A DNA stretch of 64,000 bases from an archaeon (GCA_018651925.1 JABIDC010000009.1:80403-144402); one strand, 5' to 3'. Positions 4,076 to 64,000 are shown, counted from the first letter of the stretch. Numbers and translations: made by a program. The notes: generated by a model from the sequence alone, not told the origin.

Positions 4076-4109
4076 ATATATTTAAAAAATAAAAATTATA
4101 ATTAAATAA

Positions 4110-5114: not shown

Positions 5115-5117
5115 CAA

Positions 5118-6038: not shown

Positions 6039-6049
6039 ATAATAGAAAT

Positions 6050-7734: not shown

Positions 7735-7820
7735 TTTGATTATTATGATGAAGTCTTAGGATAGTTATGATCCAAAAATCAAATAGTTTGGACTTGAAGA
7801 AAAAATAATAAAAATCTAAA

Positions 7821-10234: not shown

Positions 10235-10264
10235 AAGTTTTATTAGGGAACTTTCTTTTTAAAA

Positions 10265-11786: not shown

Positions 11787-11994
11787 TTAATTTTTTCTCC
11801 GAAAGAATTTCTTAAACAAAATAAATATTTGTTCCTGGCAATACAAAATCCTTTATGCTCTTTTTTTACAAATTCTTTTTTTAAGAAGACAAGATTTTTC
11901 ATACCTCTCCAAGGATTTTTTCTTTTTTAAATTTAATTCGGTTCAAAAAAGGTTCAACCTATATTTTTAAAAAAGAAAAAGTTATAAATAGAAT

Positions 11995-13083: not shown

Positions 13084-13094
13084 TTTTTTAACTC

Positions 13095-15945: not shown

Positions 15946-15969
15946 GATAAGTTTAATTAAAAATATTTT

Positions 15970-16992: not shown

Positions 16993-16993
16993 T

Positions 16994-19669: not shown

Positions 19670-19711
19670 GATATAATTTTAAACTAAAATCTCTTTTTAA
19701 ATCTTCTTTTA

Positions 19712-20710
19712 TTATAACAAAGTTAAAAGTCCAAGGACAATAAAGATTATCTGGAAAAGATTTATGGCATAAACCACTTCTTTCTCATAAACTTTTTTGC
19801 CTGGTTTTATTTTCTTTAAAACTGCAATTGCAATGTGTTCAATTCCATAAAATTTCTCATAAGGAACCTCGAGTGAGCCATCTTCATTCAATTTAGCAAA
19901 ACTTTCTTTTACCAACTTTCCTCTGGCTTTAAGAAAGACTTCTAAAATGTAGGGAATAAAAAATATTATTGCAGCTTTTTCAATATTCCCCATAATTGCA
20001 ATTGTTCCAATTAATGCTCCCACTGAATATGTCAAAGTGTCTCCAGGAAAAACTTTTGCAGGATGTTTATTAAAAATATAAAATGCAATTAATGAAGCAA
20101 CAGCAAAAGCACAAATTACACTCAACCAAGCATTTCCAGTAAAATAAGTTGCGAGTCCAAGTCCAGATAAAATTAAAATTCCTTGGCTTGTTTCAAGCCC
20201 ATTGTATCCCGCAATGATATTAAATGCAGTTGTAGTGGCAACAATACCTAAAGGAATAAGCAACAAAGGATAAAATATCCCAAAATTAATTGTTCCAAGA
20301 AGAGGAAGAGACATTACCGATTCTCCTGCATTTATTACCATTAAAGGAATTGCAGCAAAAATCATTAAAATCAATCTTATTTTTTTATTAAGTCCCTTTT
20401 TCCAACCCAACAAATCATCTGTTAATCCAATCATAGATGAAATAAATAAAACACTCAAAAGTGCAAAAATTTCAATGAGATTTGAAGTATTCCCAATGTA
20501 AAAGGTTTGAATTCCAACATAAATTAAAATTCCAATTGAAAGCCCAATTAAAACACTAATTCCCCCAACTTCCGCAACTCTTTCTTCATTAATTTTATGC
20601 ATATCTTTTGCAGTCATTTTATTTTCTTTAGCTTTCCTTATCCAGGTTGGCAAAACAAGATATGTGCAAAAAAAACTAATGAGAATTGCAATTAAAATTA
20701 TTGGGTCCAT
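19712..20710 (-). CDS. UDP-GlcNAc:dolichyl-phosphate GlcNAc-1-phosphate transferase (AglH/Alg7/WecA-MraY superfamily)
   Basis: Polytopic membrane protein with the GLTDDLLG and NIIAGYNGLETSQG motifs typical of archaeal AglH-type phosphoglycosyltransferases. It lies next to aglB. Confidence 0.8.
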   Translation of the reverse strand: MDPIILIAILISFFCTYLVLPTWIRKAKENKMTAKDMHKINEERVAEVGGISVLIGLSIGILIYVGIQTFYIGNTSNLIEIFALLSVLFISSMIGLTDDLLGWKKGLNKKIRLILMIFAAIPLMVINAGESVMSLPLLGTINFGIFYPLLLIPLGIVATTTAFNIIAGYNGLETSQGILILSGLGLATYFTGNAWLSVICAFAVASLIAFYIFNKHPAKVFPGDTLTYSVGALIGTIAIMGNIEKAAIIFFIPYILEVFLKARGKLVKESFAKLNEDGSLEVPYEKFYGIEHIAIAVLKKIKPGKKVYEKEVVYAINLFQIIFIVLGLLTLL

Positions 20711-40817: not shown

Positions 40818-41048
40818 ATGAATAGAAGTCAGTGGAGAGTGTTAGCAATTACTTTTGCTCTCATCGGAATCCTTTCAATTATAACTGCAACAGATTCAAA
40901 ATCACTTTGTGATTCTTCACAAGAATATCCCTTATCTAATTCAAATATTTGGGGTTGTTCAAGATATAATGTTTTTTCTGCGTTCGCTTACTTTTCATTT
41001 TTTCTCGCAATTGCTTGTTCAATTTGTTTTAATTTAGAAAAGAGGTGA
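40818..41048 (+). CDS. Small two-TM membrane protein, hypothetical
   Basis: 76 aa with two hydrophobic helices and an ATG start. Confidence 0.4.
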   Translation: MNRSQWRVLAITFALIGILSIITATDSKSLCDSSQEYPLSNSNIWGCSRYNVFSAFAYFSFFLAIACSICFNLEKR

Positions 41049-52241: not shown

Positions 52242-52637
52242 TTATATCTTAGCAACAGAGAAAACTGTTTTTAATGCCACTATTATTGTTGCAGGAACAA
52301 ATAATGCAAGTAACGCTGCAAAAGTGGAAGAGACTGTGTCTCCAATTCCAATCCCAATTAATGATCCTGTGACACTTTCCATACCAAATTTACTTACGAT
52401 TACCAAAATTGCACTCGCAATCAAAAATGTTTGGGAATCAGACTTTCCTGAGACGTTAATGGAAAACCCAACAAATAACCCCAACATAACTAAAATTGCA
52501 TAAATTTGAGGGCTATATGAAATAATTTTCTGTAAGGGAAAAATGGACCCTGCACTAATTCCAATAAGAACCGCTAAAATTACTCCAACTAAGAACGCCC
52601 ATGCTCCAATTGAATTTTCTCTCGATTTAAGTGTCAT
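52242..52637 (-). CDS. Four-TM membrane protein, hypothetical
   Basis: 131 aa, an ATG start and four clear hydrophobic helices. No family recognised. Confidence 0.5.
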   Translation of the reverse strand: MTLKSRENSIGAWAFLVGVILAVLIGISAGSIFPLQKIISYSPQIYAILVMLGLFVGFSINVSGKSDSQTFLIASAILVIVSKFGMESVTGSLIGIGIGDTVSSTFAALLALFVPATIIVALKTVFSVAKI

Positions 52638-52833: not shown

Positions 52834-54726
52834 ATGAAGATCAAAACATTCAATTTCATTATTGCAAGTATGTTTTTATTAGTTCTAGCTACAAGTTTTA
52901 CAAGTGCAGCATTGACTTTAACTGAAATAAATGTTCCAGTAAATTCAACTCACGGATCAACAATTAATGTTGAAGTTAGCTTATTATCTGATTCAAATTA
53001 TACTAATTTAACTTGGGATGGATCAAATGCTGCTTTTGATGTTTCTTCTCTTCCTTTAGAAATTACAGAAGATGAGACAATAAATTTCACCGTAGAATTA
53101 ACAGTATCAGAAGATGCGGGAATTTTTTCTGCAGATCTTAAGGTAAAGGATAGTATTTCCTCAGATGGAGACTTAATTACAATCTCAACAACTGTTTTAG
53201 AAAATAAAGAATTATCTGTGACAAGTGCAACTCTTTCAGGAGATTCAACAACAATTACAATTACCAATGAAGGAAATGTAAACTTAGAAAATATTGTTTT
53301 AACAAGTTCAATTGGAAATTTCGAAATTAACTTCTCAGAAAATAACTTTAATTTAGCTAAAGGGGCTACAAAAGAAGTTACAGTTACTCTGGTAAATGAA
53401 GATAGCGATTTAATCGGAACTAATACTTTAACAATTACTGCTACTGCTGAAGATGGAACAAGTTCAACAGGAATAATTACAAGAGGAGCAGGATTTTGTG
53501 AAGCAATTCCTTCATTAGAAGATTTGAGAATAAAAAGCATTGACATTTCAAACAGAGGAATGGAACATATTACTTTTGGAGAGGAAGAGAAATGGTATCC
53601 TTTCGAAGAAATTGAAGTTACAGTAGAATTAGAAAATAGGGGAAATAACGATATAGAAGATATTGAAATTGAATGGGGATTATATAATAAAGAATTAAAC
53701 GAGTGGGTTATTGAGATTGATGAAGCAGACAAAGTTGATTTAGATGAAGATGATGAACTTGAAGTAACATTTAGTTTCACATTAGATGAAGGAGATTTAG
53801 AAATTGATTTAGACGAATTAACTAACGGAAATGATTATGAACTTTATGTTCGGGCAATTGGAGAATTCTCCGAAGGAGATAATGAAGGAGAACAAACTTG
53901 CGTTGAAGATAAAGAATCTGCAGAAGTAGTTATTGAAGACGATTTACTTGCCTTAAATGAAATCACTTTCAATGAAGACATAACTTGTGATTCAAAATTA
54001 ACAATTAATACAGAAGTTTGGAACATTGGAGAAGATAAACAAAAGGACTTTTATATTAGGGTTTCAAATAACAAATTAGGGATTAGCGAAGAATTTGAAT
54101 TTGAAGATTTAAAGGCTTTTGATTCAGAAGATTTAATAATCAATTTAGAAATTCCTGGAAATCTTGATGAAGGAAAATATGATTTGAAATTTGAACTTTA
54201 TGATAAAAATGATGATCTTTACGAAGCAAACGATGAAGAAGCAGAATTTTATGTTAGATTAAATGTGGCAGGAAATTGCGAAGTTAAACCAACTTTGGAC
54301 ATTTCAGCAACATTACAAGAAGCAAGAGAAGGAAAAGAAGCAGAAATTATAGTTGAAGTAACAAACTTAGGAGATTCAACTCAAACTTTTGATTTAAGTT
54401 TAGCTTCATACAATTCATGGGTTGAAAGTTATGAACTTAGTACAGATTATTTGGTTCTCCGAGGAGGAGAAACAAAAGAGATTGTAATCACAGCATTAAT
54501 TAAAGATGATGTTGTTGGAACAAATGAATTTGAGCTTTTATTAACTTCAGATGATGGAATCGAAACTCAACCTATTGAAGTAGAAGTAGTAAAGAATTCA
54601 GGACTTTTCGGATTTACTGGACTTTCAATTGGAGGAAATGTCTACGCTTCAAGTTTAACTGTTTTAATTTTAATTTTAGTAATTATTATTTTAGTGTTAC
54701 TAATTGTTAGAAAATTAAGAAAATAG
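52834..54726 (+). CDS. Acidic secreted cell-surface protein with a C-terminal sorting-signal-like anchor (CARDB/Ig-like repeats probable)
   Basis: Signal peptide MKIKTFNFIIASMFLLVLATSFTSAA. Many N-x-S/T sequons. Repeated beta-rich segments (VTVTLVNEDSD, VTVELENRGNNDIED, VEVTNLGDSTQ). The C-terminus is GLFGFTGLSIGG, a TM helix LTVLILILVIIILVLLIV, then basic RKLRK. Confidence 0.7.
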   Translation: MKIKTFNFIIASMFLLVLATSFTSAALTLTEINVPVNSTHGSTINVEVSLLSDSNYTNLTWDGSNAAFDVSSLPLEITEDETINFTVELTVSEDAGIFSADLKVKDSISSDGDLITISTTVLENKELSVTSATLSGDSTTITITNEGNVNLENIVLTSSIGNFEINFSENNFNLAKGATKEVTVTLVNEDSDLIGTNTLTITATAEDGTSSTGIITRGAGFCEAIPSLEDLRIKSIDISNRGMEHITFGEEEKWYPFEEIEVTVELENRGNNDIEDIEIEWGLYNKELNEWVIEIDEADKVDLDEDDELEVTFSFTLDEGDLEIDLDELTNGNDYELYVRAIGEFSEGDNEGEQTCVEDKESAEVVIEDDLLALNEITFNEDITCDSKLTINTEVWNIGEDKQKDFYIRVSNNKLGISEEFEFEDLKAFDSEDLIINLEIPGNLDEGKYDLKFELYDKNDDLYEANDEEAEFYVRLNVAGNCEVKPTLDISATLQEAREGKEAEIIVEVTNLGDSTQTFDLSLASYNSWVESYELSTDYLVLRGGETKEIVITALIKDDVVGTNEFELLLTSDDGIETQPIEVEVVKNSGLFGFTGLSIGGNVYASSLTVLILILVIIILVLLIVRKLRK

Positions 54727-55305
54727 TTTTATTTCTTTAATAAATTTAGAGTTACTTATTTTTATTCCTAACTTCCCTAACGCATATCCTGCTGCCGCAC
54801 CAATTAATACATCGCTTACATAATGGACTCCAAGATAAATTCTTGATAAACAAATCAAGATTGCAAAAATTAACCAGGCAACTCTAAGTCTCGGAAATTT
54901 ATTAGAGATGATTGAAAAAGTTGCAAAGGCAAGCATTGCATGAACCGAGGGAAAGGAAAAATTCCAGATAAGGTGAGAGGATTCAACCAATTTTTCCGAA
55001 GCAATTGGAATTATTTTTTCTTGATATGGTCGAAGTCTTTGGACAAAGAATTTTAATAAAAATCCAAGAATCACTGTTGTACCAATTGAAAACCAGAGTG
55101 GAAATCTCAGTTTTTTAGAAAACAATGAAACAAGGACAAGAAAGAAAATTACCATGGTTGTAGAGCTGATAAATTCAATTCCTAAAAAGAAACTAGTTAA
55201 GAAACCAACTCTGAGGTTAACAAGCGATTTTATCAAAAACTCATCAAATAGAAGGGTTATTAGTCCAAGAACAAACAATATAATGGGAATCAACCACCTT
55301 TTCAT
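54715..55305 (-). CDS. PAP2-family lipid phosphatase (dolichyl/polyprenyl pyrophosphate phosphatase candidate)
   Basis: All three PAP2 motifs are present: KFFVQRLRP, FPSVHA and SRIYLGVHYVSDV. Confidence 0.85.
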   Translation of the reverse strand: MKRWLIPIILFVLGLITLLFDEFLIKSLVNLRVGFLTSFFLGIEFISSTTMVIFFLVLVSLFSKKLRFPLWFSIGTTVILGFLLKFFVQRLRPYQEKIIPIASEKLVESSHLIWNFSFPSVHAMLAFATFSIISNKFPRLRVAWLIFAILICLSRIYLGVHYVSDVLIGAAAGYALGKLGIKISNSKFIKEIKLFS

Positions 55306-55353
55306 GAGGATTAAAACCTTAAAATACTTAAATAGATTTCTACTTCTCTCTTT

Positions 55354-55887
55354 ATGAAAAAAGAGGGAAAAAAGCTATTGGGCCTTTCAATAAGATATTT
55401 CATTTTAATTTTATTAGCAATCCCGAATCTTTTTATTTTCTATTTTGTTTTTACTCCTTTGACTCTTTATCCAGTTTATTTTTTACTTAATTTATTTTTT
55501 GATACAATCTTGGTGAAGAATATAATTATTCTTTCTGGCACACTTCCCATAGAATTAATTCCTGCTTGCATCGCAGGGGCAGCATACTATTTATTATTAA
55601 TTTTAAATCTGTCAACTCCAGAAATAAAACTTAACAAAAGAATTAAAATGATTTCAATTTCCCTCATAACCCTTTTAATTTTAAATATATTAAGGATTTT
55701 TTTCTTGAGTATTGTGGCTTATTCTGGTTCTCCTCTTTTTGACATAACTCATAAAATCTTTTGGTATTTAGTAAGTACATTATTCGTAGTGGGAATTTGG
55801 TTCTGGCAAGTAAAGAAATTTAAGATAAAAGAAATCCCGATATTTTCTGATTTAAAGTTTTTATATTCGAAAACCAAAAAGAATTAA
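55354..55887 (+). CDS. Exosortase/archaeosortase-family protein (short, pacearchaeosortase-like)
   Basis: 177-aa polytopic protein with a membrane-embedded Cys (IELIPACIAGAAYY, Cys72), then Arg 41 residues later (LILNILRIFFLS, Arg113), then DITHKIFW. This layout fits the conserved Cys/Arg motifs of the family. It lies next to a protein with a matching C-terminal signal. Confidence 0.6.
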   Translation: MKKEGKKLLGLSIRYFILILLAIPNLFIFYFVFTPLTLYPVYFLLNLFFDTILVKNIIILSGTLPIELIPACIAGAAYYLLLILNLSTPEIKLNKRIKMISISLITLLILNILRIFFLSIVAYSGSPLFDITHKIFWYLVSTLFVVGIWFWQVKKFKIKEIPIFSDLKFLYSKTKKN

Positions 55888-56561
55888 TTATTTGTTTTAA
55901 GCAATCCTTCAACAATAAATCTTTCCTTTGCTTCAAAAATTTCACAATTATTGACATGAAATTCATAGCAACTTGGTCCAATTTCTAAAACTTTTGTTGT
56001 TTCTCCAGGAATTAGTTTAATGAAAGTATATTCTCCATCCGTCTCGCATCCGCCATCCGAAACGCCTACTAATTTTGTTCCCCAAGCTTCAAACATCTCT
56101 TCTAATAAAACTGTTGATATTTGATCATATCCTTCACAATGTAGCTCTGAGTTTGTTTCAATAAAAGCCATATTTTTTAATAAAATATTTCCTTCAAAAG
56201 GAATTTCTTTTTGTATTTCTCGAGGGTCATGACGCAAATAAATATTATGGGTGTTTGTTGGAGTTGATAAAAAAGAGGAATGATAAAAAGTTATTTCTCC
56301 TTCTGTATCTATCACATCCCACTCTAATCCCGCATAATTAAAATTAGAATTAAAGATTAAGGGGGAAAGCAAAAATCCAAGAATTAATAAAACAAAGACT
56401 CCAATTCCAATAAAGAAATTTCTTAAAATTTTGTTTTGATGTGCAATTTGACCTTTTGTTTTAATTTTTTCTTCAACAACACTTTCTTTCTCAATAATTT
56501 TATTTCCAACTTCAAAAATCTCTTTTGTTTTTGATTTTTTTGAATCTTTTTTCTTTGCCAT
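55884..56561 (-). CDS. Single-pass membrane protein with a Cys-containing ectodomain, hypothetical
   Basis: Lys-rich cytoplasmic N-terminus, TM FFIGIGVFVLLILGFLLSPLIF, and a ~150-aa ectodomain with 5 Cys. Confidence 0.5.
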   Translation of the reverse strand: MAKKKDSKKSKTKEIFEVGNKIIEKESVVEEKIKTKGQIAHQNKILRNFFIGIGVFVLLILGFLLSPLIFNSNFNYAGLEWDVIDTEGEITFYHSSFLSTPTNTHNIYLRHDPREIQKEIPFEGNILLKNMAFIETNSELHCEGYDQISTVLLEEMFEAWGTKLVGVSDGGCETDGEYTFIKLIPGETTKVLEIGPSCYEFHVNNCEIFEAKERFIVEGLLKTNN

Positions 56562-56599
56562 AGATTATTTTCGGGAAAAGACTTTTTAAAATATTTGTC

Positions 56600-57163
56600 T
56601 TAGTTTATTCCGAGGATTTTTAGGATAAATGAATCAATTAGCTTTGGAATTTCTTCTTGAGATCCTTGGATATAAACACATCCGTCGTTTTGAGAAACTC
56701 CACTTTTATTCGATTCAGTGATTATAATGAAATTTGAATCACAATTTTTTACAGGTAAGTCTCCTTCGCAAGGAGAATTTTCTACACATGCAAATTGCAT
56801 TCGAGTAACAAGTTGATTAAGGTTGGCATAAATTTGAGAGTTTGCAATTAAGTTTGTAGAAGACAAATAAAGTGGCTGTGAATAATAATTTTCAATTCTC
56901 CTTAAATCCTCTTCGATTAAAATTGTTTCTTTTGGATTAGTTCTAAAAATAAATTCTATCTCGTCTTTCTCTAATTGCCAGTATCCTCCATCATTCACAA
57001 ATTCTTCTCCATTATAGGTAATTTTTTTCCTTGTAGAGTCTTGTCCTTGGAAGGCATAACCAATTGTACTAAAGAGCATAACAAAAATTAAAATTCCTCC
57101 AACAAGCAATTGGTTTCGCTGTTTTTTCTTTTTCTCTTTGACCTTTGAACTAATTTTTCTCAT
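56600..57163 (-). CDS. Single-pass membrane protein with a Cys-containing ectodomain, hypothetical
   Basis: Lys-rich N-terminus, TM LLVGGILIFVMLFSTIGYAF, and a ~140-aa ectodomain with 4 Cys. Same architecture as its downstream neighbour. Confidence 0.5.
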   Translation of the reverse strand: MRKISSKVKEKKKKQRNQLLVGGILIFVMLFSTIGYAFQGQDSTRKKITYNGEEFVNDGGYWQLEKDEIEFIFRTNPKETILIEEDLRRIENYYSQPLYLSSTNLIANSQIYANLNQLVTRMQFACVENSPCEGDLPVKNCDSNFIIITESNKSGVSQNDGCVYIQGSQEEIPKLIDSFILKILGIN

Positions 57164-57274: not shown

Positions 57275-59413
57275 TTAAGCAGTTTTTGTAACTGTTGAAG
57301 TACCGCTAACACCAGTTGTTCCGAAGTAAGTATTTCCATCAGCAACTTCGATCATAGGATCTCTGTTAACATTTGATTTCAAGTAACTTACAGCAGCTTC
57401 AGTGTTTTCTTTCTCATAACCAGCAACAACTAATGCTGTTTTACCAGTTGTGAAAGCATCACCAACAACCTTAATTATGTATTGACCAGTACCAACGTTT
57501 GTAGCTCCAGTAAATGCAGCATCACAAGTTCCAGCAGAAACTCCTAAAGCTTCAGCAGTAGCTGTATTAATACAACTTCCACCTACAAGGATAACATTTT
57601 TGTTAGCCCATGAGCTTTTATCGCTATCTGTGAAAATCATGCTTCCTGAAGTAGTAGTATCAGTTGAGATACCTCCTAAAACAGAAACTTGTGCATAAAC
57701 TTTTTCATCAGGAATACTAATAATAACTTTGTCAGCATCAGCATTTCCTTCAACTCCACTAGAATCATCTTCAGCAACAATTATACCATAATCATTCATA
57801 ATAGATTTATCTTTTGTAGATACATCTGTTCCGCTAACAAGAATATCGTTAGCATCAGCATCTTCAGCAGTAGTTCCTAATTTCTCAAGAGTACCTGCTT
57901 CATCAGCTAATGTTGTTCCTCCGATTGTAAAGTTAATATCATCGTCATCTGGATCTTCCAAAGACAATGTCATAACTCCGCTTGCAACTGTAACATCAAT
58001 ATCCATTACAGTATCTCCAATTTCAACAGTAGCAACATTTGCTCTAGCCAAAGTTTGAGTGGCGGTAAGATTTGCGTTCATTTCATAACGAGCCTTGTTT
58101 GTTGGAGTATTATCTCCATCATGGTCTCTATAGAAAACTTCCACTGCACCATATGTATTTCCATATGATTCAGTTTCTGAACCATTCTCTGCATACCAAA
58201 GGTAAATCTTATCTGTTTCTTCACCTCCAACAGTAATTGAGGAAGTTGTAGATGCAGAAATTACAATAACTTTTTCATCTTCATTAGCAACTGCGTTGTC
58301 TGAAGAATTGTATAAATCAATATCTGCAAATTCTATAGTAATGTCTTCGTAGTCAACATCTGTAGTTCCTTCAAGTGTTGCAGCAGCAAAACCTTCTGGA
58401 AGAACATAACTTTCTCCAACATATTTAATAGAATCTCCTGCTTCACTATCGTCTGCATCATTAATGTTAACATTATATGTCACACCAACGTATCCAGCAG
58501 CAGTACATGCAGTTGAAATATCCCAAACCCATAATGGGTCATCTTCGTCTTCTCCAATGTATTCGTCTCCATCAGAATAAGTCTTTGAAATATCAGTTCC
58601 GATTTTTAAAATTGCTCTACTAGTTTCTGGAGTATCTGAGTGGTAGATAATACTATCAGCTTTTACCCTGATACCATCAATCTTTTTAGATTGACCATCA
58701 TCTATTACTTCTGCATTAACCATAATTCCATCACTCCATACATCATCTAATGTAAATGTTTTACCATCTACAGTATAACTTTCCCCCACACTAAGAAGGG
58801 TATCTTCAGATGTAACAACAGTAATAGTTGTAGCAGTCATATCTTCAATTTCGTAGGATTTCCCTAAGATTGTAAGATATAAATCATCTGCAGCAGTATG
58901 TCCGATTCCTGTACAATTAAGTGCATCATCGAAAACATATCTATATGAAAGTCCCATGTTATTAGACATAGCAACTCCTTCAAGATCTTCATCATCTAAA
59001 GAAGTAAGAATTTCCATATCTCCAATTACGATTGATTCATGGATGTCATAGTCTGTTGAACCAAGTCCATCATCCCATGAAAGTTTTTCATCTAAAAGTG
59101 TTGGGATATTAGCATCAGTCATAGTTGTTTCAACTTCATACCCTGAGGCATCAATTTGAGTTCCAAATACAACTTCCTCTTCAGTTTCACCTTCTCCTCC
59201 TACAGTTGTAGTTGAAGTAGTTCCACCATTAAATCCTAACCAAGATGCAATACTTTCAGCAGACATCTGATCTGAGTTGTCAGCTTGAGCACCGTATACT
59301 ACAGCATCAAAGGCGTTATCACTTGGAGAAAGTGCAACAGCATTTCCCATAGTCATACCAACCATTAAAGCTCCAGCAGCAATAGCAGTAATTTTTTTAA
59401 AATTATTTTTCAT
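57275..59413 (-). CDS. Major secreted surface protein, S-layer candidate
   Basis: 712 aa with signal peptide MKNNFKKITAIAAGALMVGMTMGNAVALS. Thr/Ser/Asp/Gly/Val-rich and Lys-poor, with no TM anchor. It has a strong SD, a long leader and a strong terminator. By eye the codon composition is less AT-rich than the neighbours. Confidence 0.6.
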   Translation of the reverse strand: MKNNFKKITAIAAGALMVGMTMGNAVALSPSDNAFDAVVYGAQADNSDQMSAESIASWLGFNGGTTSTTTVGGEGETEEEVVFGTQIDASGYEVETTMTDANIPTLLDEKLSWDDGLGSTDYDIHESIVIGDMEILTSLDDEDLEGVAMSNNMGLSYRYVFDDALNCTGIGHTAADDLYLTILGKSYEIEDMTATTITVVTSEDTLLSVGESYTVDGKTFTLDDVWSDGIMVNAEVIDDGQSKKIDGIRVKADSIIYHSDTPETSRAILKIGTDISKTYSDGDEYIGEDEDDPLWVWDISTACTAAGYVGVTYNVNINDADDSEAGDSIKYVGESYVLPEGFAAATLEGTTDVDYEDITIEFADIDLYNSSDNAVANEDEKVIVISASTTSSITVGGEETDKIYLWYAENGSETESYGNTYGAVEVFYRDHDGDNTPTNKARYEMNANLTATQTLARANVATVEIGDTVMDIDVTVASGVMTLSLEDPDDDDINFTIGGTTLADEAGTLEKLGTTAEDADANDILVSGTDVSTKDKSIMNDYGIIVAEDDSSGVEGNADADKVIISIPDEKVYAQVSVLGGISTDTTTSGSMIFTDSDKSSWANKNVILVGGSCINTATAEALGVSAGTCDAAFTGATNVGTGQYIIKVVGDAFTTGKTALVVAGYEKENTEAAVSYLKSNVNRDPMIEVADGNTYFGTTGVSGTSTVTKTA

Positions 59414-59544
59414 TTTTATTTATTAAACCTCCTTTCAACTATATTAAGCATGTTGTCTATGACAACTCCCATACAATTTGCAGTCATAGGGTAAACTACG
59501 CATTGCATTGAGTGTGATTTGTTTTTGTTTCTCATTTTATTCCC

Positions 59545-59553
59545 TATATAAAA
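59545..59553 (-). promoter_or_regulatory. TATA box (TTTTATATA) of the S-layer-like gene, implying a ~100-110 nt 5-prime UTR
   Basis: The minus strand reads GTTTTATATAGGG about 135 nt upstream of ATG 59413. GGAGGT (59432-59427) lies 13 nt before the ATG. A GTTGTC-ATA-GACAAC hairpin (59452-59466) sits inside the leader. Confidence 0.5.
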
Positions 59554-59845
59554 CGTCGCAAAAGGAAATTACTTTCACTTAAGCTTAATTGAAAAAGCTA
59601 CTTTTACTTTAAAAAGCTTGTGTTCCCAAAAACCCCTTCTCAAGGGAAAACAGGTCATTTTGAAGGTTTTACTTATAAAGGTTATGCTGTCACTAAGATA
59701 TAAATACAGATAAAAAACTTCAATTATTTGCCTTTTTACAAACATTTATTAACATATCTATTCTAATTATAATATATATTAAGAAATAACCTATATGATC
59801 AAAGTATATTTTTAATATATCTAAACAAAAATAATCCCTATCAAA

Positions 59846-60193
59846 ATGCCAAAGAAAAAAGTAAGAGAAATTACAATTGAGGAGTCAAAAGGATCTTTTT
59901 CTATTTTTAAAAAATCTAAATCTTCAAAATATAATTTTACGGGCATGGCTGCATTAAGACAATTATTAAGCAATGAAAAAGCAAGAATTCTCCACACAAT
60001 AAAAACAGAGAATCCTACTTCGATTTACGATTTGGCAAAAAAATTAGACAGGGGATTTAAATCTGTGAGTGATGATCTTAAACTTTTAGAAAGATTTGGT
60101 TTTATTGAGTTAATTCAAGAGAAAACAAAGAATAGGATAAGACATAAACCAACAATTGTAGTAGATTCTATAACAATTAATATTAAACTTTAG
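59846..60193 (+). CDS. Small winged-helix DNA-binding protein
   Basis: 115 aa. LSNEKARILHTIKTENPTSIYDLAKKLDRGFKSVSDDLKLLERFGFIEL is a clear HTH plus wing. An AT-rich TATA-like TTTTTAATATAT lies about 28 nt upstream. Confidence 0.6.
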   Translation: MPKKKVREITIEESKGSFSIFKKSKSSKYNFTGMAALRQLLSNEKARILHTIKTENPTSIYDLAKKLDRGFKSVSDDLKLLERFGFIELIQEKTKNRIRHKPTIVVDSITINIKL

Positions 60194-60687
60194 TAGTAGG
60201 CTTCAAAAAATAGTTTGATTTGATTGCCACTTTTAACAAAGCTTTGACTAGAAGCCTTTCGATTGTTTGTTTGATTCCCCTGAAAGATGCTTTCCAATTC
60301 TCTTCCTTCAACAGTAATATTCAAGACATATCCTTTAATTGGCCTTTCTTCTCCATATGGCCAAGCCGCAGAAGAAATATCCCCTAAAGTTGATTCTAAT
60401 ATTTCACAAGGGTCTTCTCCATTTTGACAGGCCTCTTCTTGTTCACAAGAAAAAATTACTTGTTTAATTGTCAAATGGTCCAGATAATCTTCACACTCTG
60501 TGGTGTATTGTAAAACTGCTTCCAAATAACTTTCAACTTCATAGCTTTCAACAACCTCTTTATTTGTATTTCTCATAGAAAATCCTAGGAAGATTAAAAT
60601 TATAACTGCGACTAAAATAATTATGGCTGCAAACCCGACCATTTCTTCCTGCGCTCTTCTATTTTTAATTTGCATTTGCCACCTCAT
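60190..60687 (-). CDS. Class III signal peptide (prepilin-like) protein 4, hypothetical
   Basis: N-terminus M(RWQM)QIKNRRAQ then EEMVGFAAIIILVAVIILIFLGF. The mature part has 4 Cys. The alternative ATG at 60675 is equally possible. Confidence 0.6.
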   Translation of the reverse strand: MRWQMQIKNRRAQEEMVGFAAIIILVAVIILIFLGFSMRNTNKEVVESYEVESYLEAVLQYTTECEDYLDHLTIKQVIFSCEQEEACQNGEDPCEILESTLGDISSAAWPYGEERPIKGYVLNITVEGRELESIFQGNQTNNRKASSQSFVKSGNQIKLFFEAYY

Positions 60688-61186
60688 AACTAATCATTAA
60701 TTTTGCAAGCTCACATTTATCATAAAAAGTATCTTCAAATTTTTCTTTATGGCACAAAGAAACAAAATTTGATGAATCAAATCCCGCGATTTCTTTATCT
60801 ATCAAACGAATAATTTCACAATTAGGATAATTTCCTTGTGTGCAAAGAGTACTTCTCCCTGAAGAAGAGAGTTTTCTAATTTCAATATTTGAAACCCCCC
60901 AAAAATTCTCATATTCCTCAATATTCATTTTAAGAGCCATAACTTTATCAAAATCTACGCAGGCAAGTTTATTGTTCCCAAAGGAGTCTCCGCAAGCAAA
61001 TTCAGGAGAATTAGAAAGTTTTGATACTAAAAGCATGGCATTTCTTTCATTTAATTCCGTTGCAGCATCAGTTACTCCGGAAAAAGTAAATATTAAGACC
61101 ACCATCCCTACTAAAACAAAAAAGATTGTTAATGCAATTAGCATGAACGCCATTTGTTGTATTTTTACTTGTCCTTTTTTTACCAT
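60665..61186 (-). CDS. Class III signal peptide (prepilin-like) protein 3, hypothetical
   Basis: The track start at 61195 is TTG. ATG 61186 gives MVKKGQ then VKIQQMAFMLIALTIFFVLVGMVVLIF. The mature part has 6 Cys. Confidence 0.6.
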   Translation of the reverse strand: MVKKGQVKIQQMAFMLIALTIFFVLVGMVVLIFTFSGVTDAATELNERNAMLLVSKLSNSPEFACGDSFGNNKLACVDFDKVMALKMNIEEYENFWGVSNIEIRKLSSSGRSTLCTQGNYPNCEIIRLIDKEIAGFDSSNFVSLCHKEKFEDTFYDKCELAKLMISYEVANAN

Positions 61187-62097
61187 AGTTTGCAAATTGC
61201 AGCCTCATTTTTATTTTGTAAATCTTCCATGTCTGAAACGACAAGGTTTAGGTCTTCTGAGTTTTCAATCAAATTAAGTTTATTAGAAAAACTAACTAGC
61301 TCTAGATTTGAGTTACAATTGTTAGATTGTACTAGTCTCGCCTTATCATCGTAAAGATTTGCAAGTTCTTGTGCTCGTAACATCAATCGTTTTAGGGTGC
61401 ATTCATAAGTTTGTTTGTCTCCAAAAATTGCCGCATACATTAATGCTTCTCCGCTAAAATAAAGAGTTTGATCATTTTTTTCCACTTTTTCCCTTCCAAT
61501 GTCAACTTTGATGTCACAGTTCCCTGAGAAACAAATTTCAATACATTCTTCTGGGAAATTTTCTCTATCATTAAAAATATTCTCTTGATTTAAGTTTTCC
61601 AATTCTTCTTCAATTTCTCCTGGGGCAGAAATAAAACAATAATCTTTTTCTGCAGAAGTCATATAGATTAAATCAGAAACTTTATATGGAAAGAAGAATG
61701 GTTTAGAAAAGATAAAAAACTTTTTCCCTTCAACTTCTCTTGGAGAGAAGATATATTTATTTGAAAAGCCCACTTCAATATCTGTCTCTGTCCATTTCCC
61801 AAGATTTTTTTGGGAAACACTAATCAATTGTCTTCCAAAAGTTCCAAAATCATTACAGGAATTATAAATTTTCGTCTCTACCGGCATAGTAAAACTGCTT
61901 GTTTTACTTGATTCAAATCCTGTTTCAAGAGGGCTTAATAAAATTCCAATTTCTTTGCTAGTTTTTGCTCCTTGTAATTCCTCCTCGTTGCCAATCATTG
62001 TTGTAACTGCATAAATTGCAAGAAATAAAATTGCAGCCCCAATAATTATCCCAAAAAGCCAAGAGAAAGACATCTCGAATCCTCTTTTATTATTCAT
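61180..62097 (-). CDS. Class III signal peptide (prepilin-like) protein 2, hypothetical, 305 aa
   Basis: MNNKRGF then EMSFSWLFGIIIGAAILFLAIYAV. The mature part has 8 Cys. Confidence 0.6.
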   Translation of the reverse strand: MNNKRGFEMSFSWLFGIIIGAAILFLAIYAVTTMIGNEEELQGAKTSKEIGILLSPLETGFESSKTSSFTMPVETKIYNSCNDFGTFGRQLISVSQKNLGKWTETDIEVGFSNKYIFSPREVEGKKFFIFSKPFFFPYKVSDLIYMTSAEKDYCFISAPGEIEEELENLNQENIFNDRENFPEECIEICFSGNCDIKVDIGREKVEKNDQTLYFSGEALMYAAIFGDKQTYECTLKRLMLRAQELANLYDDKARLVQSNNCNSNLELVSFSNKLNLIENSEDLNLVVSDMEDLQNKNEAAICKLW

Positions 62098-62584
62098 CCT
62101 TCATTAAAACAAGAGTGTCTTCAAAATTTTTAGAAAGAGTAATTTTAACTTTCCCATTTTCCACTACAAAGCATTTGGGGTTTCTTTCTAATGTTATCTT
62201 TTCAACATCTATATGATTTATTTTTGTTGAGTCAAGTCCATCTGCTGAGCCAACAGGATAAAAAGCAAGATTTTCTTCGCCATAAAAAACTCTTTGAAAA
62301 TCAGAATATTTTTCACTTGAGAATCTAGAATCAAAATCAACAATACAAACTTCCTGAACATCATTTGGAAGAAAGTATTCTAATTCTTGAGATCCCTGTC
62401 CTCCCTTCCATAATTTATCTACTCCTTCTTGCAATCCGGTTTTAAAGTCTAAAAGTTTTAGATCTTCCCCGGTATTCACAAAGCTCATTATTGCAAAAAT
62501 TGCAAAAGCCAAAAAGGCCACAATTAAAATAATTGAAAAAATCATGCCAAAAGATAATTGCATCTGTCCTCTTTTATTCTTCAT
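62090..62584 (-). CDS. Class III signal peptide (prepilin-like) protein 1, hypothetical
   Basis: MKNKRGQ then MQLSFGMIFSIILIVAFLAFAIFAI. The mature part has 2 Cys. Confidence 0.6.
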   Translation of the reverse strand: MKNKRGQMQLSFGMIFSIILIVAFLAFAIFAIMSFVNTGEDLKLLDFKTGLQEGVDKLWKGGQGSQELEYFLPNDVQEVCIVDFDSRFSSEKYSDFQRVFYGEENLAFYPVGSADGLDSTKINHIDVEKITLERNPKCFVVENGKVKITLSKNFEDTLVLMKDE

Positions 62585-62606
62585 AGTTAATTAAAAAATA
62601 TAAAAT

Positions 62607-64000
62607 TTATAAATCTATACCCACGTCTGTAGCTCGTACAATCATGTTACATTGATTTCCTCCTACTGGAAGATTATAATATTCATCTCGACATTTAATG
62701 AATAGGTCTGATTGAGTATTCCAAGGAGTGAAGTGTTCTAAGTTATCTGAAGTAGTCATAGGATTCATTTCTTCAAAAGAGATAGAGCAATCATTTGTAG
62801 AATAAGAACACTCTGATTCTTCATTTGTAATAAGTTTTAATTTATTGTCTTCGTTATATGCTCTAACCACAACTGGTGCTTCTTTATCTGATTCAACATA
62901 GAAATCAATTTCTCGTTTATCCTCGTTTCCTCCAAGGTCAACACATTTAAGGAAATAGTGATAATTTCCTTCTTCAAGATAAACTTCCTGTGAATGTTCA
63001 TATGAATTAGTATTAAAAAACTCAATATAATTACTATCTGTTTCACTATAATAACAAGTTGCTTCTCCTTCGTTGAATCCTTCTTTTGTTTCCATCGTAA
63101 ATTCAACTTTAACTGAATTAGCTGAATCCCTGATAACATCTGTTCCATTTGGTTGAAAATCTCCAATGTATAATGGTCGAGTTCCAATTAATGTAAATTT
63201 ATATGATTCCGCATTTGTGTTTCTTTTATCTTCTACAACTCCAATTGGTTGGTCGCGGCATCTAAAGTAAAATTTATTCTCCATCCGATTTTGTAATCCA
63301 GTAAGCGTTGTTTTACATGAATAGAGCATTTGACCATTAATCTCTCCAATGCTTCTGTCACAATTTTCAAATGTTTCTTCCATGTTTTCATAAGTCAAAT
63401 CTAAATGGCTCCACTTACATTCAGAAGGTTCATTTAAGTATAATTCAAAATCTTCCACATTTGTTTGATCAAATTTAATTGGCATTTCGTTAATTATTGA
63501 GGTTGAAACAATTAGTGGAGCTGTTGTGTCTGGACCTTCTTCAACACAATACTTGAAAACAAAGTTTGCTAAATTTGAGTTATCGTTAGCATCTGCGCAC
63601 CGAACATATAATTCATATTGTCCGTCATTTTCCAGAGTAATATTTTCTGCACCTAAGTTGGCACTTCCAGGAAGACTCAATTGAAATTCATGTGTTTCTT
63701 GCAATAATGAACCAGATAAGAAAATTCTCATTTCATCAAAACTTGCTTTTCTTTCAGGATCAATTTTACATTTAGCAGGTTCATCAAGAGTAATCCCTAT
63801 TTTTAATGGTGTGAACGCTTTAACACATCCGTCAGTTGCATCATTAACCACAGTTACTCCTCTATCTGGTGGACTAACTGCGTTATCTGGGGTATATCTA
63901 TATCCTTCTAAAAGTGCATCATCCCAAGCTTCAATAATTGGAAACTCATTATCATTTCTATTAACCCAAACACATTTCTCTTCGCTTGTTCCAGGATTAA
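62607..64000 (-). CDS. Large extracellular repeat protein, 5-prime end outside the window
   Basis: The track starts it at GTG 63851. The same frame stays open to base 64000 (...NPGTSEEKCVWVNRNDNEFPIIEAWDDALLEGYRYTPDNAVSPPDRGVTV-VNDATDG...). It contains four ~100-aa modules with a shared Cys/His/Cys-x-Asp frame. It lies 22 nt upstream of the pilin-like genes on the same strand. Confidence 0.7.
   Translation of the reverse strand, partial: NPGTSEEKCVWVNRNDNEFPIIEAWDDALLEGYRYTPDNAVSPPDRGVTVVNDATDGCVKAFTPLKIGITLDEPAKCKIDPERKASFDEMRIFLSGSLLQETHEFQLSLPGSANLGAENITLENDGQYELYVRCADANDNSNLANFVFKYCVEEGPDTTAPLIVSTSIINEMPIKFDQTNVEDFELYLNEPSECKWSHLDLTYENMEETFENCDRSIGEINGQMLYSCKTTLTGLQNRMENKFYFRCRDQPIGVVEDKRNTNAESYKFTLIGTRPLYIGDFQPNGTDVIRDSANSVKVEFTMETKEGFNEGEATCYYSETDSNYIEFFNTNSYEHSQEVYLEEGNYHYFLKCVDLGGNEDKREIDFYVESDKEAPVVVRAYNEDNKLKLITNEESECSYSTNDCSISFEEMNPMTTSDNLEHFTPWNTQSDLFIKCRDEYYNLPVGGNQCNMIVRATDVGIDL

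What the first reader, a model, noticed from the sequence alone, without database searches (positions are those of the whole stretch)
60190..64000. Operon of four tandem prepilin-like proteins behind a large repeat protein, with no assembly machinery in view
Four consecutive minus-strand genes (62584 down to 60190) overlap by 8, 7 and 11-23 nt, which suggests translational coupling.

Each opens with a short basic N-terminus ending in G/A plus Q/F, followed at once by a ~20-residue hydrophobic helix:
- MKNKRGQ-MQLSFGMIFSIILIVAFLAFAIFAI
- MNNKRGF-EMSFSWLFGIIIGAAILFLAIYAV
- MVKKGQ-VKIQQMAFMLIALTIFFVLVGMVV
- KNRRAQ-EEMVGFAAIIILVAVIILIFLGF

This is the layout of archaeal class III (type IV prepilin) signal peptides cut by PibD/FlaK/EppA-type peptidases. 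The mature parts (about 130-270 aa) match no family I recognise. They carry even Cys counts (2, 8, 6, 4 in gene order), consistent with disulfide-bonded extracellular domains.

The genes lie 22 nt downstream of a surface repeat protein with more than 460 aa visible, on the same strand. No FlaI/PilB-type ATPase, FlaJ/PilC-type platform or prepilin peptidase is visible. In a presumed episymbiotic small-genome archaeon, this could be a minor-pilin/adhesin module of an undescribed surface appendage or attachment apparatus.
Basis: partly seen in the sequence, partly recalled or inferred. Interest (0 to 1): 0.8.

Follow-up and report, generated by a model that had tools for sequence, protein, structure and literature searches.

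The report
Conserved Pacearchaeota pilin-like surface operon
Four overlapping genes in an uncultivated small-genome archaeon (Pacearchaeota) carry a conserved pilin-type cleavage signal and belong to an unnamed surface-protein operon beside the S-layer gene in over 200 species, but its assembly machinery and function are still unknown.

Summary
Four minus-strand genes (g1-g4, 62584 to 60190) overlap by 8, 7 and 11 nt and lie 22 nt behind a large Cys-rich protein.

In 44-75 orthologues per family, the N-termini of g1, g3 and g4 keep an almost invariant [K/R][K/R]-[G/A/S]|Q site just before a highly conserved hydrophobic helix. This is the published signature of archaeal class III signal peptides of the EppA/Epd type. 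g2 has a variant without Gln at +1.

The real unit is larger than the finding. It reads pAB - B549 - B885 - g1-g4. pAB is a fifth prepilin-like protein. B549 is a secreted protein with 41 Cys. B885 is the "repeat protein". A convergent wHTH gene and an S-layer gene follow. This order is kept in more than 30 Pacearchaeota loci, and the g2 family occurs in 222 species genomes.

None of the seven families matches any Pfam, NCBIfam or PDB entry. Confident AlphaFold models of g2 and g4 show a long N-terminal helix plus a β-sheet, with no significant structural neighbour.

No ATPase, platform or peptidase gene lies within about 77 kb of this genome or within ±10 kb in 80 related loci.

Best reading: a lineage-specific pilin-like (minor-pilin or pseudopilus plus adhesin) envelope module. 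Whether a filament machine exists could not be tested.

The parts
62607..64000 (-). C-terminal 463 aa of B885, which is 885 aa in full and continues beyond the window. It is a membrane protein with a class-III-like or Sec-like N-terminus, a Gly-rich TM hairpin, a Cys knot and a Cys-rich Ig-like ectodomain.
   Evidence: - Translation.
- Full length in L002 7321-9978.
- TM segments at residues 20-38, 275-293 and 351-369; all 21 Cys lie after residue 385.
- 52-61% identity over 463 aa, 626 proteins at E<=1e-3, some with Big_13/DUF4625.
- N-terminal consensus [KR][KR]G-x-[IL]A[IL]S[QE]I.
62090..62584 (-). g1, a 164-aa prepilin-like protein with the site KRG|Q. It is a paralogue of the N-terminal half of g2.
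   Evidence: - ORF and sequence.
- In 72 orthologues, -1 is G54/A12/S4 and +1 is Q63; residues +5 to +12 are 94-99% conserved.
- hhalign against g2: 94.7% probability over 141 columns.
62486..62584 (-). g1 class III signal plus H-domain (aa 1-33).
   Evidence: Criteria from PMC4371748.
61180..62097 (-). g2, a 305-aa prepilin-like protein with the site KRG|F, a variant without Gln at +1. It has a long N-terminal helix, a β-sheet and a C-terminal helical domain.
   Evidence: - ORF.
- 764 homologues, all unnamed and without Pfam domains.
- 222 species genomes.
- 1631 representative clusters at 50% identity with E<=1e-3.
- AlphaFold2 pLDDT 83, helix 11-53, strands 66-156, helices 217-299.
- No PDB structural neighbour.
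60665..61186 (-). g3, a 173-aa prepilin-like protein with the site KKG|QVKIQQ. It has six conserved Cys.
   Evidence: - ORF.
- In 75 orthologues, -1 is A43/G29/S3, +1 Q is 75/75, K at +3 is 75/75 and QQ at +5/+6 is 74-75/75.
- Invariant Cys at 65, 76, 115, 123, 145 and 158.
60190..60675 (-). g4, a 161-aa prepilin-like protein with the site RRA|QEE. It has four conserved Cys.
   Evidence: - ORF.
- In 72 orthologues, -1 is G32/A30/S10 and Q+1, E+2, E+3 are each 72/72.
- AlphaFold2 pLDDT 86, helix 7-35, helix 45-56, four-stranded antiparallel sheet 115-160.
- No significant PDB neighbour.
59846..60193 (+). Winged-helix regulator of the Pfam HVO_A0114 family. It is convergent with g4 (4-nt overlap of the stop regions) and divergent from the S-layer gene.
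   Evidence: - Pfam E 6.7e-18.
- Present at this position in nearly all loci.
- Median identity 69%.
57275..59413 (-). S-layer-like protein, 712 aa, with a Sec signal. It is a conserved downstream neighbour (context).
   Evidence: - S_layer_C is weak here (E 1e-3).
- The hit is on record without a weak mark in orthologues of L092 and L094.
- Synteny.
55884..57163 (-). p187 and p225, two conserved proteins anchored by an N-terminal TM segment, each with 4 Cys, downstream of the S-layer gene (context).
52834..55887 (.). Context genes of the surface-protein island: PACE-CTERM putative S-layer protein (52834-54726, +), PAP2 phosphatase (54715-55305, -) and pacearchaeosortase (55354-55887, +).
   Evidence: - NCBIfam NF033506 at 380 bits and NF033505 at 220 bits.
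- PAP2.

Best explanation
**What it is**

g1-g4 are type-IV-pilin-like proteins carrying EppA/Epd-type class III signal peptides. They belong to a Pacearchaeota-wide operon, pAB - B549 - B885 - g1 - g2 - g3 - g4.

**Proposed mechanism**

1. The proteins are inserted through Sec with the N-terminus inside the cell.
2. A prepilin peptidase encoded elsewhere removes the short basic leader after the G/A/S residue. This leaves an N-terminal Gln and a roughly 25-residue hydrophobic helix.
3. The family-specific, highly conserved helices pack into a heteromeric helical bundle. This bundle would be a short pseudopilus or pilus-tip ("minor pilin") complex, with disulfide-bonded globular heads outside the cell.
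4. The bundle carries or docks the disulfide-rich giant proteins B885 (membrane-embedded) and B549 (secreted). These two are fused into one polypeptide in the upstream paralogue.
5. The assembly sits in or spans the S-layer and serves cell-surface attachment, plausibly to a host cell.

**Shown**
- Gene structure.
- The conserved processing-site signature.
- Operon conservation and lineage.
- Predicted helix-plus-sheet folds.
- Extracellular Cys pattern.
- The fusion link between B549 and B885.

**Inferred**
- Cleavage.
- Bundling or filament formation.
- Partnership with B885/B549.
- Role in attachment.
- Existence of an ATPase, platform and peptidase elsewhere in the genome.
For: **Processing site**
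- It is conserved across orthologues. -1 is G/A/S in 100%. -2/-3 is mostly K/R. +1 Gln is 44/44 (pAB), 63/72 (g1), 75/75 (g3) and 72/72 (g4).
- It meets the published criteria and matches the sites of proven EppA substrates (PMC4371748).

**H-domain**
- H-domain residues are the best-conserved part of each protein. For g1, positions +5 to +12 are 94-99% conserved, against 55% mean column identity for the whole protein. That exceeds what a plain anchor needs.

**Clustering**
- The tandem clustering is not chance: the control scan gave 0 hits.

**Predicted folds**
- g2 has pLDDT 83 with helix 11-53 followed by a sheet.
- g4 has pLDDT 86 with an N-terminal helix and a four-stranded antiparallel sheet.
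- g1 and g2 are paralogues.

**Cys pattern**
- Conserved Cys occur in even numbers: 2, 6 and 4 in g1, g3 and g4, and 4 in pAB.

**Operon conservation**
- The 7-gene order is kept in more than 30 loci and in distant relatives.
- 222 species genomes carry the g2 family, nearly all labelled DPANN archaea (one record titled Patescibacteria).

**Link between the large proteins**
- BIGF (1215 aa) equals B549 plus B885 (E 6e-35 and 2e-53), which ties the two large proteins together.
- B885 has a class-III-like N-terminus with a buried Q/E and a Cys-rich Ig-like ectodomain.

**Literature**
- TFF system 1 (Epd-type) and subsystem 4A occur in some DPANN (bioRxiv 10.64898/2026.04.22.720090).
- DPANN "dark-matter" pilins have been seen next to FlaI/TadC (PMC6393860).
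- Archaeal pilin genes often lie apart from their machinery (PMC4858521).
Against: - No ATPase, platform or A24 peptidase lies in about 77 kb of this genome.
- None lies within ±10 kb in 80 related loci: no T2SSE Walker A motif, and the unlabelled large ORFs are surface proteins.
- He et al. (bioRxiv 2020.05.14.094862) state that T4P components are missing from DPANN genomes.
- No curated pilin or class-III model is met. PF04021 is touched once, at E 0.1. DUF7248 is touched by 8 of 34 members, all below its cut-off.
- Foldseek finds no pilin neighbour. The best pilin-type entry is EpsI at probability 0.30 for g2, and none appears for g4.
- g2 lacks Gln at +1, and none of the families has the Glu at +5 typical of Epd pilins.
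- Conservation of 40-58% is high for adhesins or pilins.
- The tightest linkage is to a regulator and the S-layer gene, not to any TFF gene.
Confidence: 0.6

Rival explanations
1. **An envelope scaffold independent of any TFF machine.** The proteins are processed (or not) but never polymerised by an ATPase. They form a static complex embedded in the membrane that anchors or organises the S-layer and the giant Cys-rich proteins. This would be a bindosome-like or stalk-like structure rather than a pilus.
For: - The locus is invariantly adjacent to the wHTH regulator and the S-layer gene. In L094 the quartet occurs without B885 directly upstream.
- The whole stretch is a surface-protein island holding the pacearchaeosortase and its target.
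- No machinery was found anywhere examined.
- He et al. report that DPANN lack T4P components.
- Conservation is comparable to or above that of the S-layer protein: g3 57.5%, pAB 54%, g2 52% and g4 45%, against 41% for the S-layer protein; g1 is about equal at 40%.
- The S-layer protein has no C-terminal anchor, so it needs a partner.
Against: - The known bindosome still needs the BasE/F ATPase and platform.
- No substrate-binding domains are present.
- Adjacency may only reflect a conserved surface-gene island.
- The strict Gln at +1 and G/A/S at -1 still imply a dedicated peptidase of the TFF toolkit.
Confidence: 0.25
2. **Ordinary uncleaved type II signal-anchor membrane proteins, or Sec/SPase-I substrates.** On this reading the resemblance to class III signals is coincidental.
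For: - No Pfam class-III or pilin model is met.
- No pilin-like structural neighbour was found.
- No peptidase was found.
- B885 also has a plausible SPase-I site (VSA) after its first hydrophobic segment.
Against: - A plain anchor does not need an invariant G/A/S-Gln junction with K/R at -2/-3 in five unrelated families over 44-75 orthologues each.
- The hydrophobic segments are of TM length and lack a c-region.
- They are predicted as the start of 29- to 43-residue helices.
- The motif is identical to proven EppA sites.
Confidence: 0.1
3. **A DNA-uptake or other secretion pseudopilus.** This would be Com-like or T2SS-like, with five pilin-like proteins (pAB plus g1-g4) serving nutrient or DNA scavenging in an auxotrophic symbiont.
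For: - The five class-III families in one operon match the one-major-plus-four-minor layout of Com and T2SS pseudopili (own knowledge).
- The host is a small-genome DPANN archaeon; that such lineages are auxotrophic is own knowledge.
Against: - No ComEC, secretin or ATPase genes are in view.
- Nothing in the sequences points to DNA binding.
- This is pure analogy.
Confidence: 0.05

Closest known systems
Epd pili of Methanococcus maripaludis (archaeal TFF system 1; EppA-processed pilins EpdA-E)
   Same: - The processing-site signature is identical: [K/R]-[G/A]|Q-[V/I/L/M]. Epd sites are RAQI, KGQV, KGQL and KGQI. The sites here are RGQM, KGQV, RAQE and KGQV.
- Several different pilin-like genes sit in one transcription unit together with an adhesin-like large protein.
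- System 1 is reported in some DPANN archaea.
   Different: - No sequence or profile similarity exists beyond the signal. PF04021 is not met.
- There is no Glu at +5.
- The mature domains are far larger than the major Epd pilin, which lacks a C-terminal globular domain. Here they are about 130-300 aa against mature lengths of the known pilins recalled from my own knowledge.
- The Epd locus includes EppA, the ATPase EpdL and the platform proteins EpdJ/K. Here none is within tens of kb.
- g2 lacks Gln at +1.
Bacterial minor-pilin quartets with a tip adhesin (GspH-I-J-K; FimU-PilV-W-X plus PilY1; ComGD-G)
   Same: - Four small, translationally coupled pilin-like genes of different families lie next to a very large surface protein.
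- One member (g2) carries an extra α-helical domain, as GspK does (own knowledge).
- The 2026 TFF census describes a PilY-like adhesin in archaeal subsystem 4A/B.
   Different: - The resemblance is analogy only.
- The best Foldseek pilin-type hit, EpsI (2ret), has probability 0.30 and E 1.2.
- There is no G|F-T-L-I-E motif except a loose Q/E at about +5/+6 in B885.
- The lineage is archaeal, and no PilY1 β-propeller was detected.
Sulfolobus bindosome (Bas) and other non-filament class III signal proteins
   Same: - Class III signal proteins that work within the cell envelope near the S-layer rather than as long pili.
- Small pilin-like proteins accompany larger surface proteins.
   Different: - The BasE/F ATPase and platform are adjacent in Sulfolobus but absent here.
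- There are no sugar-binding domains.
- There is no sequence relationship.
DPANN "dark matter" pilin islands (Makarova, Wolf & Koonin 2019, PMC6393860)
   Same: - Unannotated DPANN proteins with signal peptides, interpreted as divergent pilins.
- A DPANN-specific secreted family is noted next to S-layer-like proteins.
   Different: - Those islands were recognised by adjacent FlaI and TadC genes. This operon has neither.
- I could not check whether any of their clusters (for example cls.004306) corresponds to one of these families.

Membership tests
Archaeal class III (prepilin-type) signal peptide proteins | G/A/S at -1, with the processing site placed before the hydrophobic H-domain. | tested here: met
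   - -1 is G/A/S in every orthologue that has a residue at that position: pAB 44, g1 70 of 72 (2 gaps), g3 75, g4 72.
- g2 has G/A one or two residues before the helix.
- Source. Rule from PMC4371748.
Archaeal class III (prepilin-type) signal peptide proteins | Charged residue at -2. | tested here: met
   K/R at -2 in 35/44 (pAB), 55/72 (g1), 63/75 (g3) and 55/72 (g4). K/R also dominates at -3.
Archaeal class III (prepilin-type) signal peptide proteins | H-domain of about 20 residues that continues into the N-terminal α-helix of the mature protein. | tested here: met
   - Sequences.
- AlphaFold2 helices 11-53 (g2) and 7-35 (g4).
Archaeal class III (prepilin-type) signal peptide proteins | Actual cleavage by a PibD, FlaK or EppA peptidase encoded in the same genome. 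| not testable with these tools
   - No A24 peptidase lies in the roughly 77 kb seen.
- The rest of the genome cannot be reached.
- The literature is contradictory for DPANN.
EppA-dependent Epd pilins (TFF system 1; Pfam PF04021/DUF361) | Gln at +1, which EppA requires. | tested here: met
   - Met for g1 (63/72), g3 (75/75), g4 (72/72) and pAB (44/44).
- Not met for g2, where +1 is F, L or Y.
- Source. Rule.
EppA-dependent Epd pilins (TFF system 1; Pfam PF04021/DUF361) | Glu at +5. | tested here: not met
   +5 is S (g1), Q (g3), V (g4) and F (pAB). g4 has E at +2 and +3 instead.
EppA-dependent Epd pilins (TFF system 1; Pfam PF04021/DUF361) | Match to the curated Class_IIIsignal model. | tested here: not met
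   - One of 34 g1 members matches, at E 0.1.
- PF04021 is not among the families listed for g4 or pAB members.
- Source.
EppA-dependent Epd pilins (TFF system 1; Pfam PF04021/DUF361) | Co-location with EppA, the ATPase EpdL and the platform proteins EpdJ/K. | tested here: not met
   None is present in the window, its flanks or the 80 related loci.
Type IV pilin fold (solved pilins and pseudopilins) | Significant structural or sequence similarity to a solved pilin. | tested here: not met
   - Foldseek against PDB: no hit at E<=1e-3 for g2 or g4.
- Profile searches against PDB sequences: nothing below E 0.1 for the five pilin-like families or the two large proteins.
Type IV pilin fold (solved pilins and pseudopilins) | General layout: a protruding N-terminal α-helix followed by an antiparallel β-sheet head. 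| tested here: met
   AlphaFold2 secondary-structure layout of g2 and g4.
Complete type IV filament (TFF) system | Secretion ATPase plus polytopic platform protein in the same genome. | not testable with these tools
   Absent from every stretch examined. Whole genomes could not be scanned.
Predicted arCOG01314 secretion system (Makarova 2015) | arCOG01314 (DUF4350) anchor, MoxR ATPase and a vWA protein in the neighbourhood. | tested here: not met
   No such Pfam hits in the window or related loci. System described in PMC5898192.

The most novel reading that the evidence does not exclude
Pacearchaeota, and possibly related DPANN, build a previously undescribed envelope organelle. It would be a heteromeric bundle of five or six class-III-signal proteins, assembled without a canonical TFF ATPase and platform. 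The bundle would pierce or anchor the S-layer and present a giant disulfide-knotted B885/B549 complex. It would act as the conserved host-contact apparatus of this episymbiotic lineage.
Probability: 0.2. Interest if true: 0.8.

Novelty: new variant of a known kind. Interest (0 to 1): 0.55.

Why it matters
Pacearchaeota are abundant small-genome DPANN archaea, and nothing was found in the literature on how they build their surface or attach to hosts. One paper uses "DPANN lack type IV pili genes" as a criterion to tell them apart from CPR bacteria in cryo-EM images.

This operon is a concrete, widely conserved candidate for a surface or attachment apparatus. It comprises seven unnamed protein families and is found in more than 200 species genomes.

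The proteins carry the processing signature of EppA-type pilins. That predicts a dedicated peptidase, and perhaps a filament machine, in these genomes. If neither exists, it points to a machinery-independent use of pilin-like proteins.

The operon gives defined targets for Pfam and NCBIfam family building, multimer modelling, metaproteomics and cryo-ET.

Tried and rejected
1. **Curated family scans.** Pfam and NCBIfam scans of all locus proteins, and Pfam scans of every member of three families, gave only sub-threshold hits on hydrophobic helices. These were DUF7248, DUF7287/7289, Tetraspanin and the like.
2. **PDB profile searches.** Searches with all seven families found nothing.
3. **Foldseek.** For g2 the best hit was E 0.65. 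For g4 the top hits were uS3 and Tctex-like α+β sandwiches at E above 0.02. I do not read these as homology.
4. **Machinery hunt.**
   - Pfam annotations over the window, 10 kb to its left and the contig to its right.
   - A Walker-A (T2SSE type) and GxGD scan of 1750 ORFs from the related loci.
   - The conserved 436-470 aa and roughly 600 aa genes upstream turned out to be a primase and a secreted Cys-rich protein.
   - Other large unlabelled ORFs are surface proteins or a phosphorylase.
5. **Peptidase candidate.** The 131-aa four-TM protein with a "GIGD" motif was rejected because the Asp is only 60-90% conserved and there is no family hit.
6. **Major-pilin candidate.** The small ORF at 40818-41048 is unconvincing.
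7. **Earlier census.** The "nanoarchaea with an ATPase but no pilins" of Makarova 2016 are only N. equitans and Nst1, so that work is not relevant to this lineage.
8. **arCOG01314 secretion system.** Its components are absent.
9. **Internal repeats in B885.** None was detectable by BLAST.
10. **Structured RNA.** The spacer between the wHTH and S-layer genes folds with z = -1.9, which is not significant, and no Rfam family is present.
11. **Literature.** I found no paper describing this operon or the HVO_A0114 family.

Full report
**1. The observation**

ORF listing and direct reading of the minus strand confirm four consecutive genes:
- g1: 62090-62584, 164 aa, MKNKRGQ...
- g2: 61180-62097, 305 aa, MNNKRGF...
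- g3: 60665-61186, 173 aa, MVKKGQ...
- g4: 60190-60675, 161 aa, MQIKNRRAQ...

The junctions are ATGAATAA (8 nt), ATGGTAA (7 nt) and 11 nt. The last becomes 23 nt if the upstream ATG at 60687 is used. A GAGGTG Shine-Dalgarno sequence 4 nt before 60675 favours the shorter form.

g1 starts 22 nt after the stop of a large ORF that runs off the window, with 463 aa visible. Cys counts are 2, 8, 6 and 4.

I scanned all six frames of the window for [KR]x0-1[GAS]Q followed by a strongly hydrophobic stretch. The scan returned g1, g3 and g4, an internal TM segment of a permease, and one small uncalled ORF. The reversed sequence returned nothing. The tandem cluster is therefore not a composition artefact.

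**2. Organism and surroundings**

The window is archaeal. It encodes ribosomal proteins L32e, L19e and S4e, Spt5-NGN, SUI1, AglB/STT3, and FtsZ with SepF.

It encodes the pacearchaeosortase (NF033505, 220 bits) and its PACE-CTERM putative S-layer substrate (NF033506, 380 bits). Homologues of g2, g4 and the large protein carry only the labels Pacearchaeota, Woesearchaeota, Nanoarchaeota or plain "archaeon". This is a DPANN archaeon of the Pacearchaeota.

No T2SSE/FlaI ATPase, FlaJ/TadC platform or Peptidase_A24 hit is on record in three places:
- the 64-kb window;
- the 10 kb to its left on the same 174.7-kb contig;
- the stretch to its right.

**3. The unit is larger than the finding**

An exact-sequence look-up of g1 gave contig L002, which extends 10 kb upstream. 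In order it holds:
- PCNA;
- pA, 259 aa, MRGNKKGQ|VTIF...;
- BIGF, 1215 aa, with a Sec signal and 60 Cys;
- pB, 256 aa, ...MNNKGQ|VTIF...;
- B549, 549 aa, with a Sec signal and 41 Cys;
- then g1-g4.

pA and pB are paralogues (34% identity, E 3e-36). BIGF aligns with B549 over its first half (E 6e-35) and with B885 over its second half (E 2e-53). This is a Rosetta-stone link: B549 and B885 probably work together.

B885 has an N-terminal hydrophobic segment and a Gly-rich pair of TM segments (residues 275-293 and 351-369). All 21 of its Cys lie after residue 385. It has no BLAST-detectable internal repeats. Its C-terminal half touches Ig-like models (Big_13, DUF4625) below threshold here, and those hits are on record in relatives.

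**4. Conservation elsewhere**

The g2 family has the following reach:
- 764 clusters at 90% identity, all unnamed and without Pfam domains;
- 1631 representative clusters at 50% identity with E<=1e-3, of which 409 have E<=1e-30;
- 222 species-representative genomes, nearly all labelled DPANN archaea (one record is titled Patescibacteria).

I called ORFs on 80 fetched loci and labelled them by BLAST to the reference proteins. This gave the same order in more than 30 loci with enough flank:

(primase <) PCNA > pAB* > B549 > B885* > g1* > g2* > g3* > g4* > < wHTH, S-layer-like >, p187 >, p225 >, then the sortase, PAP2 and PACE-CTERM genes. An asterisk marks a class-III-like N-terminus.

Independent gene calls with Pfam annotation agree. 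So do the most distant g4 relatives. In those, the downstream protein hits S_layer_C outright, and in L094 the quartet stands without B885 directly upstream.

The tightest association is therefore quartet - wHTH - S-layer gene. The wHTH (Pfam HVO_A0114, E 7e-18) overlaps the g4 stop region by 4 nt in convergent orientation. It is divergent from the S-layer gene across 432 bp.

Median identities relative to one reference locus:
- PCNA 72%, wHTH 69%, primase 63%;
- g3 57.5%, pAB 54%, g2 52%, g4 45%;
- B885 43%, S-layer protein 41%, g1 40%, B549 39%.

These surface proteins are about as conserved as the S-layer protein or more so. They are not hypervariable.

**5. The N-termini**

I aligned the orthologues on the reference site.
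- pAB: -1 is G37/A7, and +1 Q is 44/44.
- g1: -1 is G54/A12/S4, and +1 Q is 63/72.
- g3: -1 is A43/G29/S3, +1 Q is 75/75, K at +3 is 75/75, and QQ at +5/+6 is 74-75/75.
- g4: -1 is G32/A30/S10, and Q+1, E+2 and E+3 are each 72/72.

K/R dominates at -2 and -3 in all of them. The leaders vary widely in length in my ORF calls, yet the junction does not move.

The following hydrophobic residues are the most conserved part of each protein. For g1, positions +5 to +12 are 94-99% conserved.

g2 has a shifted variant, K-[G/A]-[Y/F]-L-[Q/E]-ISFAWLF or [K/R]-[G/A]-[L/F]-[Q/E], so it has no Gln at +1.

B885 orthologues begin [KR][KR]-G-x-[IL]-A-[IL]-S-[Q/E]-I followed by a hydrophobic stretch. This is class-III-like, with a buried Q/E at about +5/+6. 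However, a Sec-type ...VSA site follows about 20 residues later, so its status is open. B549 has an ordinary Sec signal.

The published rules (PMC4371748) are:
- G/A/S at -1 is required;
- a charged -2 is critical in archaea;
- the site lies before the H-domain;
- the large peptidase EppA of M. maripaludis requires Gln at +1, whereas FlaK refuses it;
- the proven Epd sites are RAQI, KGQV, KGQV, KGQL and KGQI.

The sites here are RGQM, KGQV, RAQE and KGQV. They fit that signature exactly, except that none has Glu at +5.

**6. The mature domains**

No Pfam or NCBIfam model reaches its cut-off for any of the seven families. Member-by-member scans show only recurrent sub-threshold contacts of g1 with DUF7248 (8 of 34, best E 3.5e-5), and one contact with PF04021 at E 0.1. 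Profile searches against all PDB sequences found nothing.

hhalign shows that g1 and g2 are paralogues (94.7% probability, 141 columns covering the helix and the β-domain). g3, g4 and pAB share only the signal.

AlphaFold2 with family alignments gave confident models:
- g2: pLDDT 83, pTM 0.76, helix 11-53, β-strands 66-156, then a helical C-terminal domain 217-299.
- g4: pLDDT 86, helix 7-35, helix 45-56, two short helices, and a four-stranded antiparallel sheet 115-160.

This layout is pilin-like in a generic sense. Foldseek against PDB gives no match at E<=1e-3. For g2 the only pilin-type entry is EpsI at probability 0.30. For g4 the top hits are uS3 and Tctex-like sandwiches.

Conserved Cys are even in number in g1 (2), g3 (6), g4 (4) and pAB (4). 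This fits disulfide-bonded extracellular heads.

**7. Interpretation**

Step by step, with the status of each:
- Class III signal: well supported by sequence conservation and published criteria. Cleavage itself is inferred.
- Pilin-like architecture: supported by the models. Homology to known pilins is not shown.
- Heteromeric helix bundle, as a tip or pseudopilus complex: inferred from three things. These are the very high, family-specific conservation of the H-domains, translational coupling, and the analogy with minor-pilin sets.
- Partnership with B885/B549: inferred from operon conservation and the fusion paralogue.
- Role in attachment: inferred from the extracellular Cys-rich Ig-like domains and the lifestyle of the lineage.

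The main rival keeps the processing but drops the filament machine. It posits a static envelope complex tied to the S-layer, which the conserved neighbourhood and the lack of any nearby machinery favour.

A plain signal-anchor reading is unlikely given the invariant junction.

I could not scan whole genomes for the peptidase, ATPase or platform, and the literature disagrees:
- He et al. say T4P components are missing in DPANN.
- The 2026 TFF census finds system 1 and subsystem 4A in some DPANN.
- Makarova et al. 2019 show DPANN pilin "dark matter" next to FlaI and TadC.
- The 2016 census covered only N. equitans and Nst1.

**8. Novelty and verdict**

I found no paper and no curated family describing this operon or its seven protein families.

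The kind of element, class-III-signal pilin-like proteins encoded apart from their machinery, is well known in archaea. I therefore rate it a new variant of a known kind.

It is of moderate to good interest because it is conserved across a major uncultivated lineage and gives a testable handle on the DPANN surface or attachment apparatus.

Noticed in passing
window 52834-55887: A pacearchaeosortase (55354-55887, +; NF033505, 220 bits) lies next to a PAP2 phosphatase and its PACE-CTERM putative S-layer substrate (52834-54726, +; NF033506, 380 bits). With the 712-aa S-layer-like gene this makes a second, sortase-based surface-anchoring system in the same island.
   Followed up: partly
window 2690-20710: A large N-glycosylation and nonulosonic-acid island. 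It holds a Wzx-like flippase, epimerases and dehydratases, NeuB, a CMP-sugar transferase, several glycosyltransferases and methyltransferases, and AglB/STT3 (16994-19669, -). It is probably the glycan supply for the surface proteins.
   Followed up: no
window 59414-60193: The HVO_A0114-family wHTH gene overlaps the g4 stop region by 4 nt in convergent orientation. It is divergent from the S-layer gene across a 432-bp spacer that ends in a strong GGAGG Shine-Dalgarno sequence. The spacer folds only marginally better than shuffled controls (z = -1.9) and matches no Rfam family.
   Followed up: partly
L002 391-4919 (beyond window position 64000): A duplicated upstream module: pA (259 aa, class III) plus BIGF (1215 aa), which is a fusion of B549-like and B885-like halves. 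It is present in only some genomes (BIGF was seen in 19 of about 80 loci).
   Followed up: partly
window 52242-52637 (-): An unannotated 131-aa protein with four TM segments, conserved beside the PACE-CTERM gene in many loci. It has a GIGD motif, but the Asp is only 60-90% conserved and there is no family hit. It is not a credible GxGD peptidase.
   Followed up: yes
window 40818-41048 (+): An uncalled 76-aa ORF that begins MNRSQ|WRVLAITFALIG... It has a weak class-III-like N-terminus and a second hydrophobic segment. It lies between tRNA-Ser and a helicase gene. Its conservation was not checked.
   Followed up: no
L091 426-3037 (about 7-10 kb left of the window start): Two resolvase/recombinase fragments flank a HAD hydrolase gene and a small RRM protein. 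This may be a remnant of an integrated element.
   Followed up: no
L063 1305-3023, L068 523-2382, L074 769-2532, L076 200-2011: Beyond the primase gene in related genomes lies another conserved secreted protein of about 570-620 aa. It has a Cys-rich C-terminal region, a C-terminal TM anchor and a proline-rich, basic cytoplasmic tail. It has no annotation.
   Followed up: no
window 62585-62613: A TTTATAAA box is centred about 26 nt before the g1 ATG and overlaps the B885 stop codon. It could drive a leaderless g1-g4 transcript in addition to read-through. This is weak evidence in a genome of 31% G+C.
   Followed up: no
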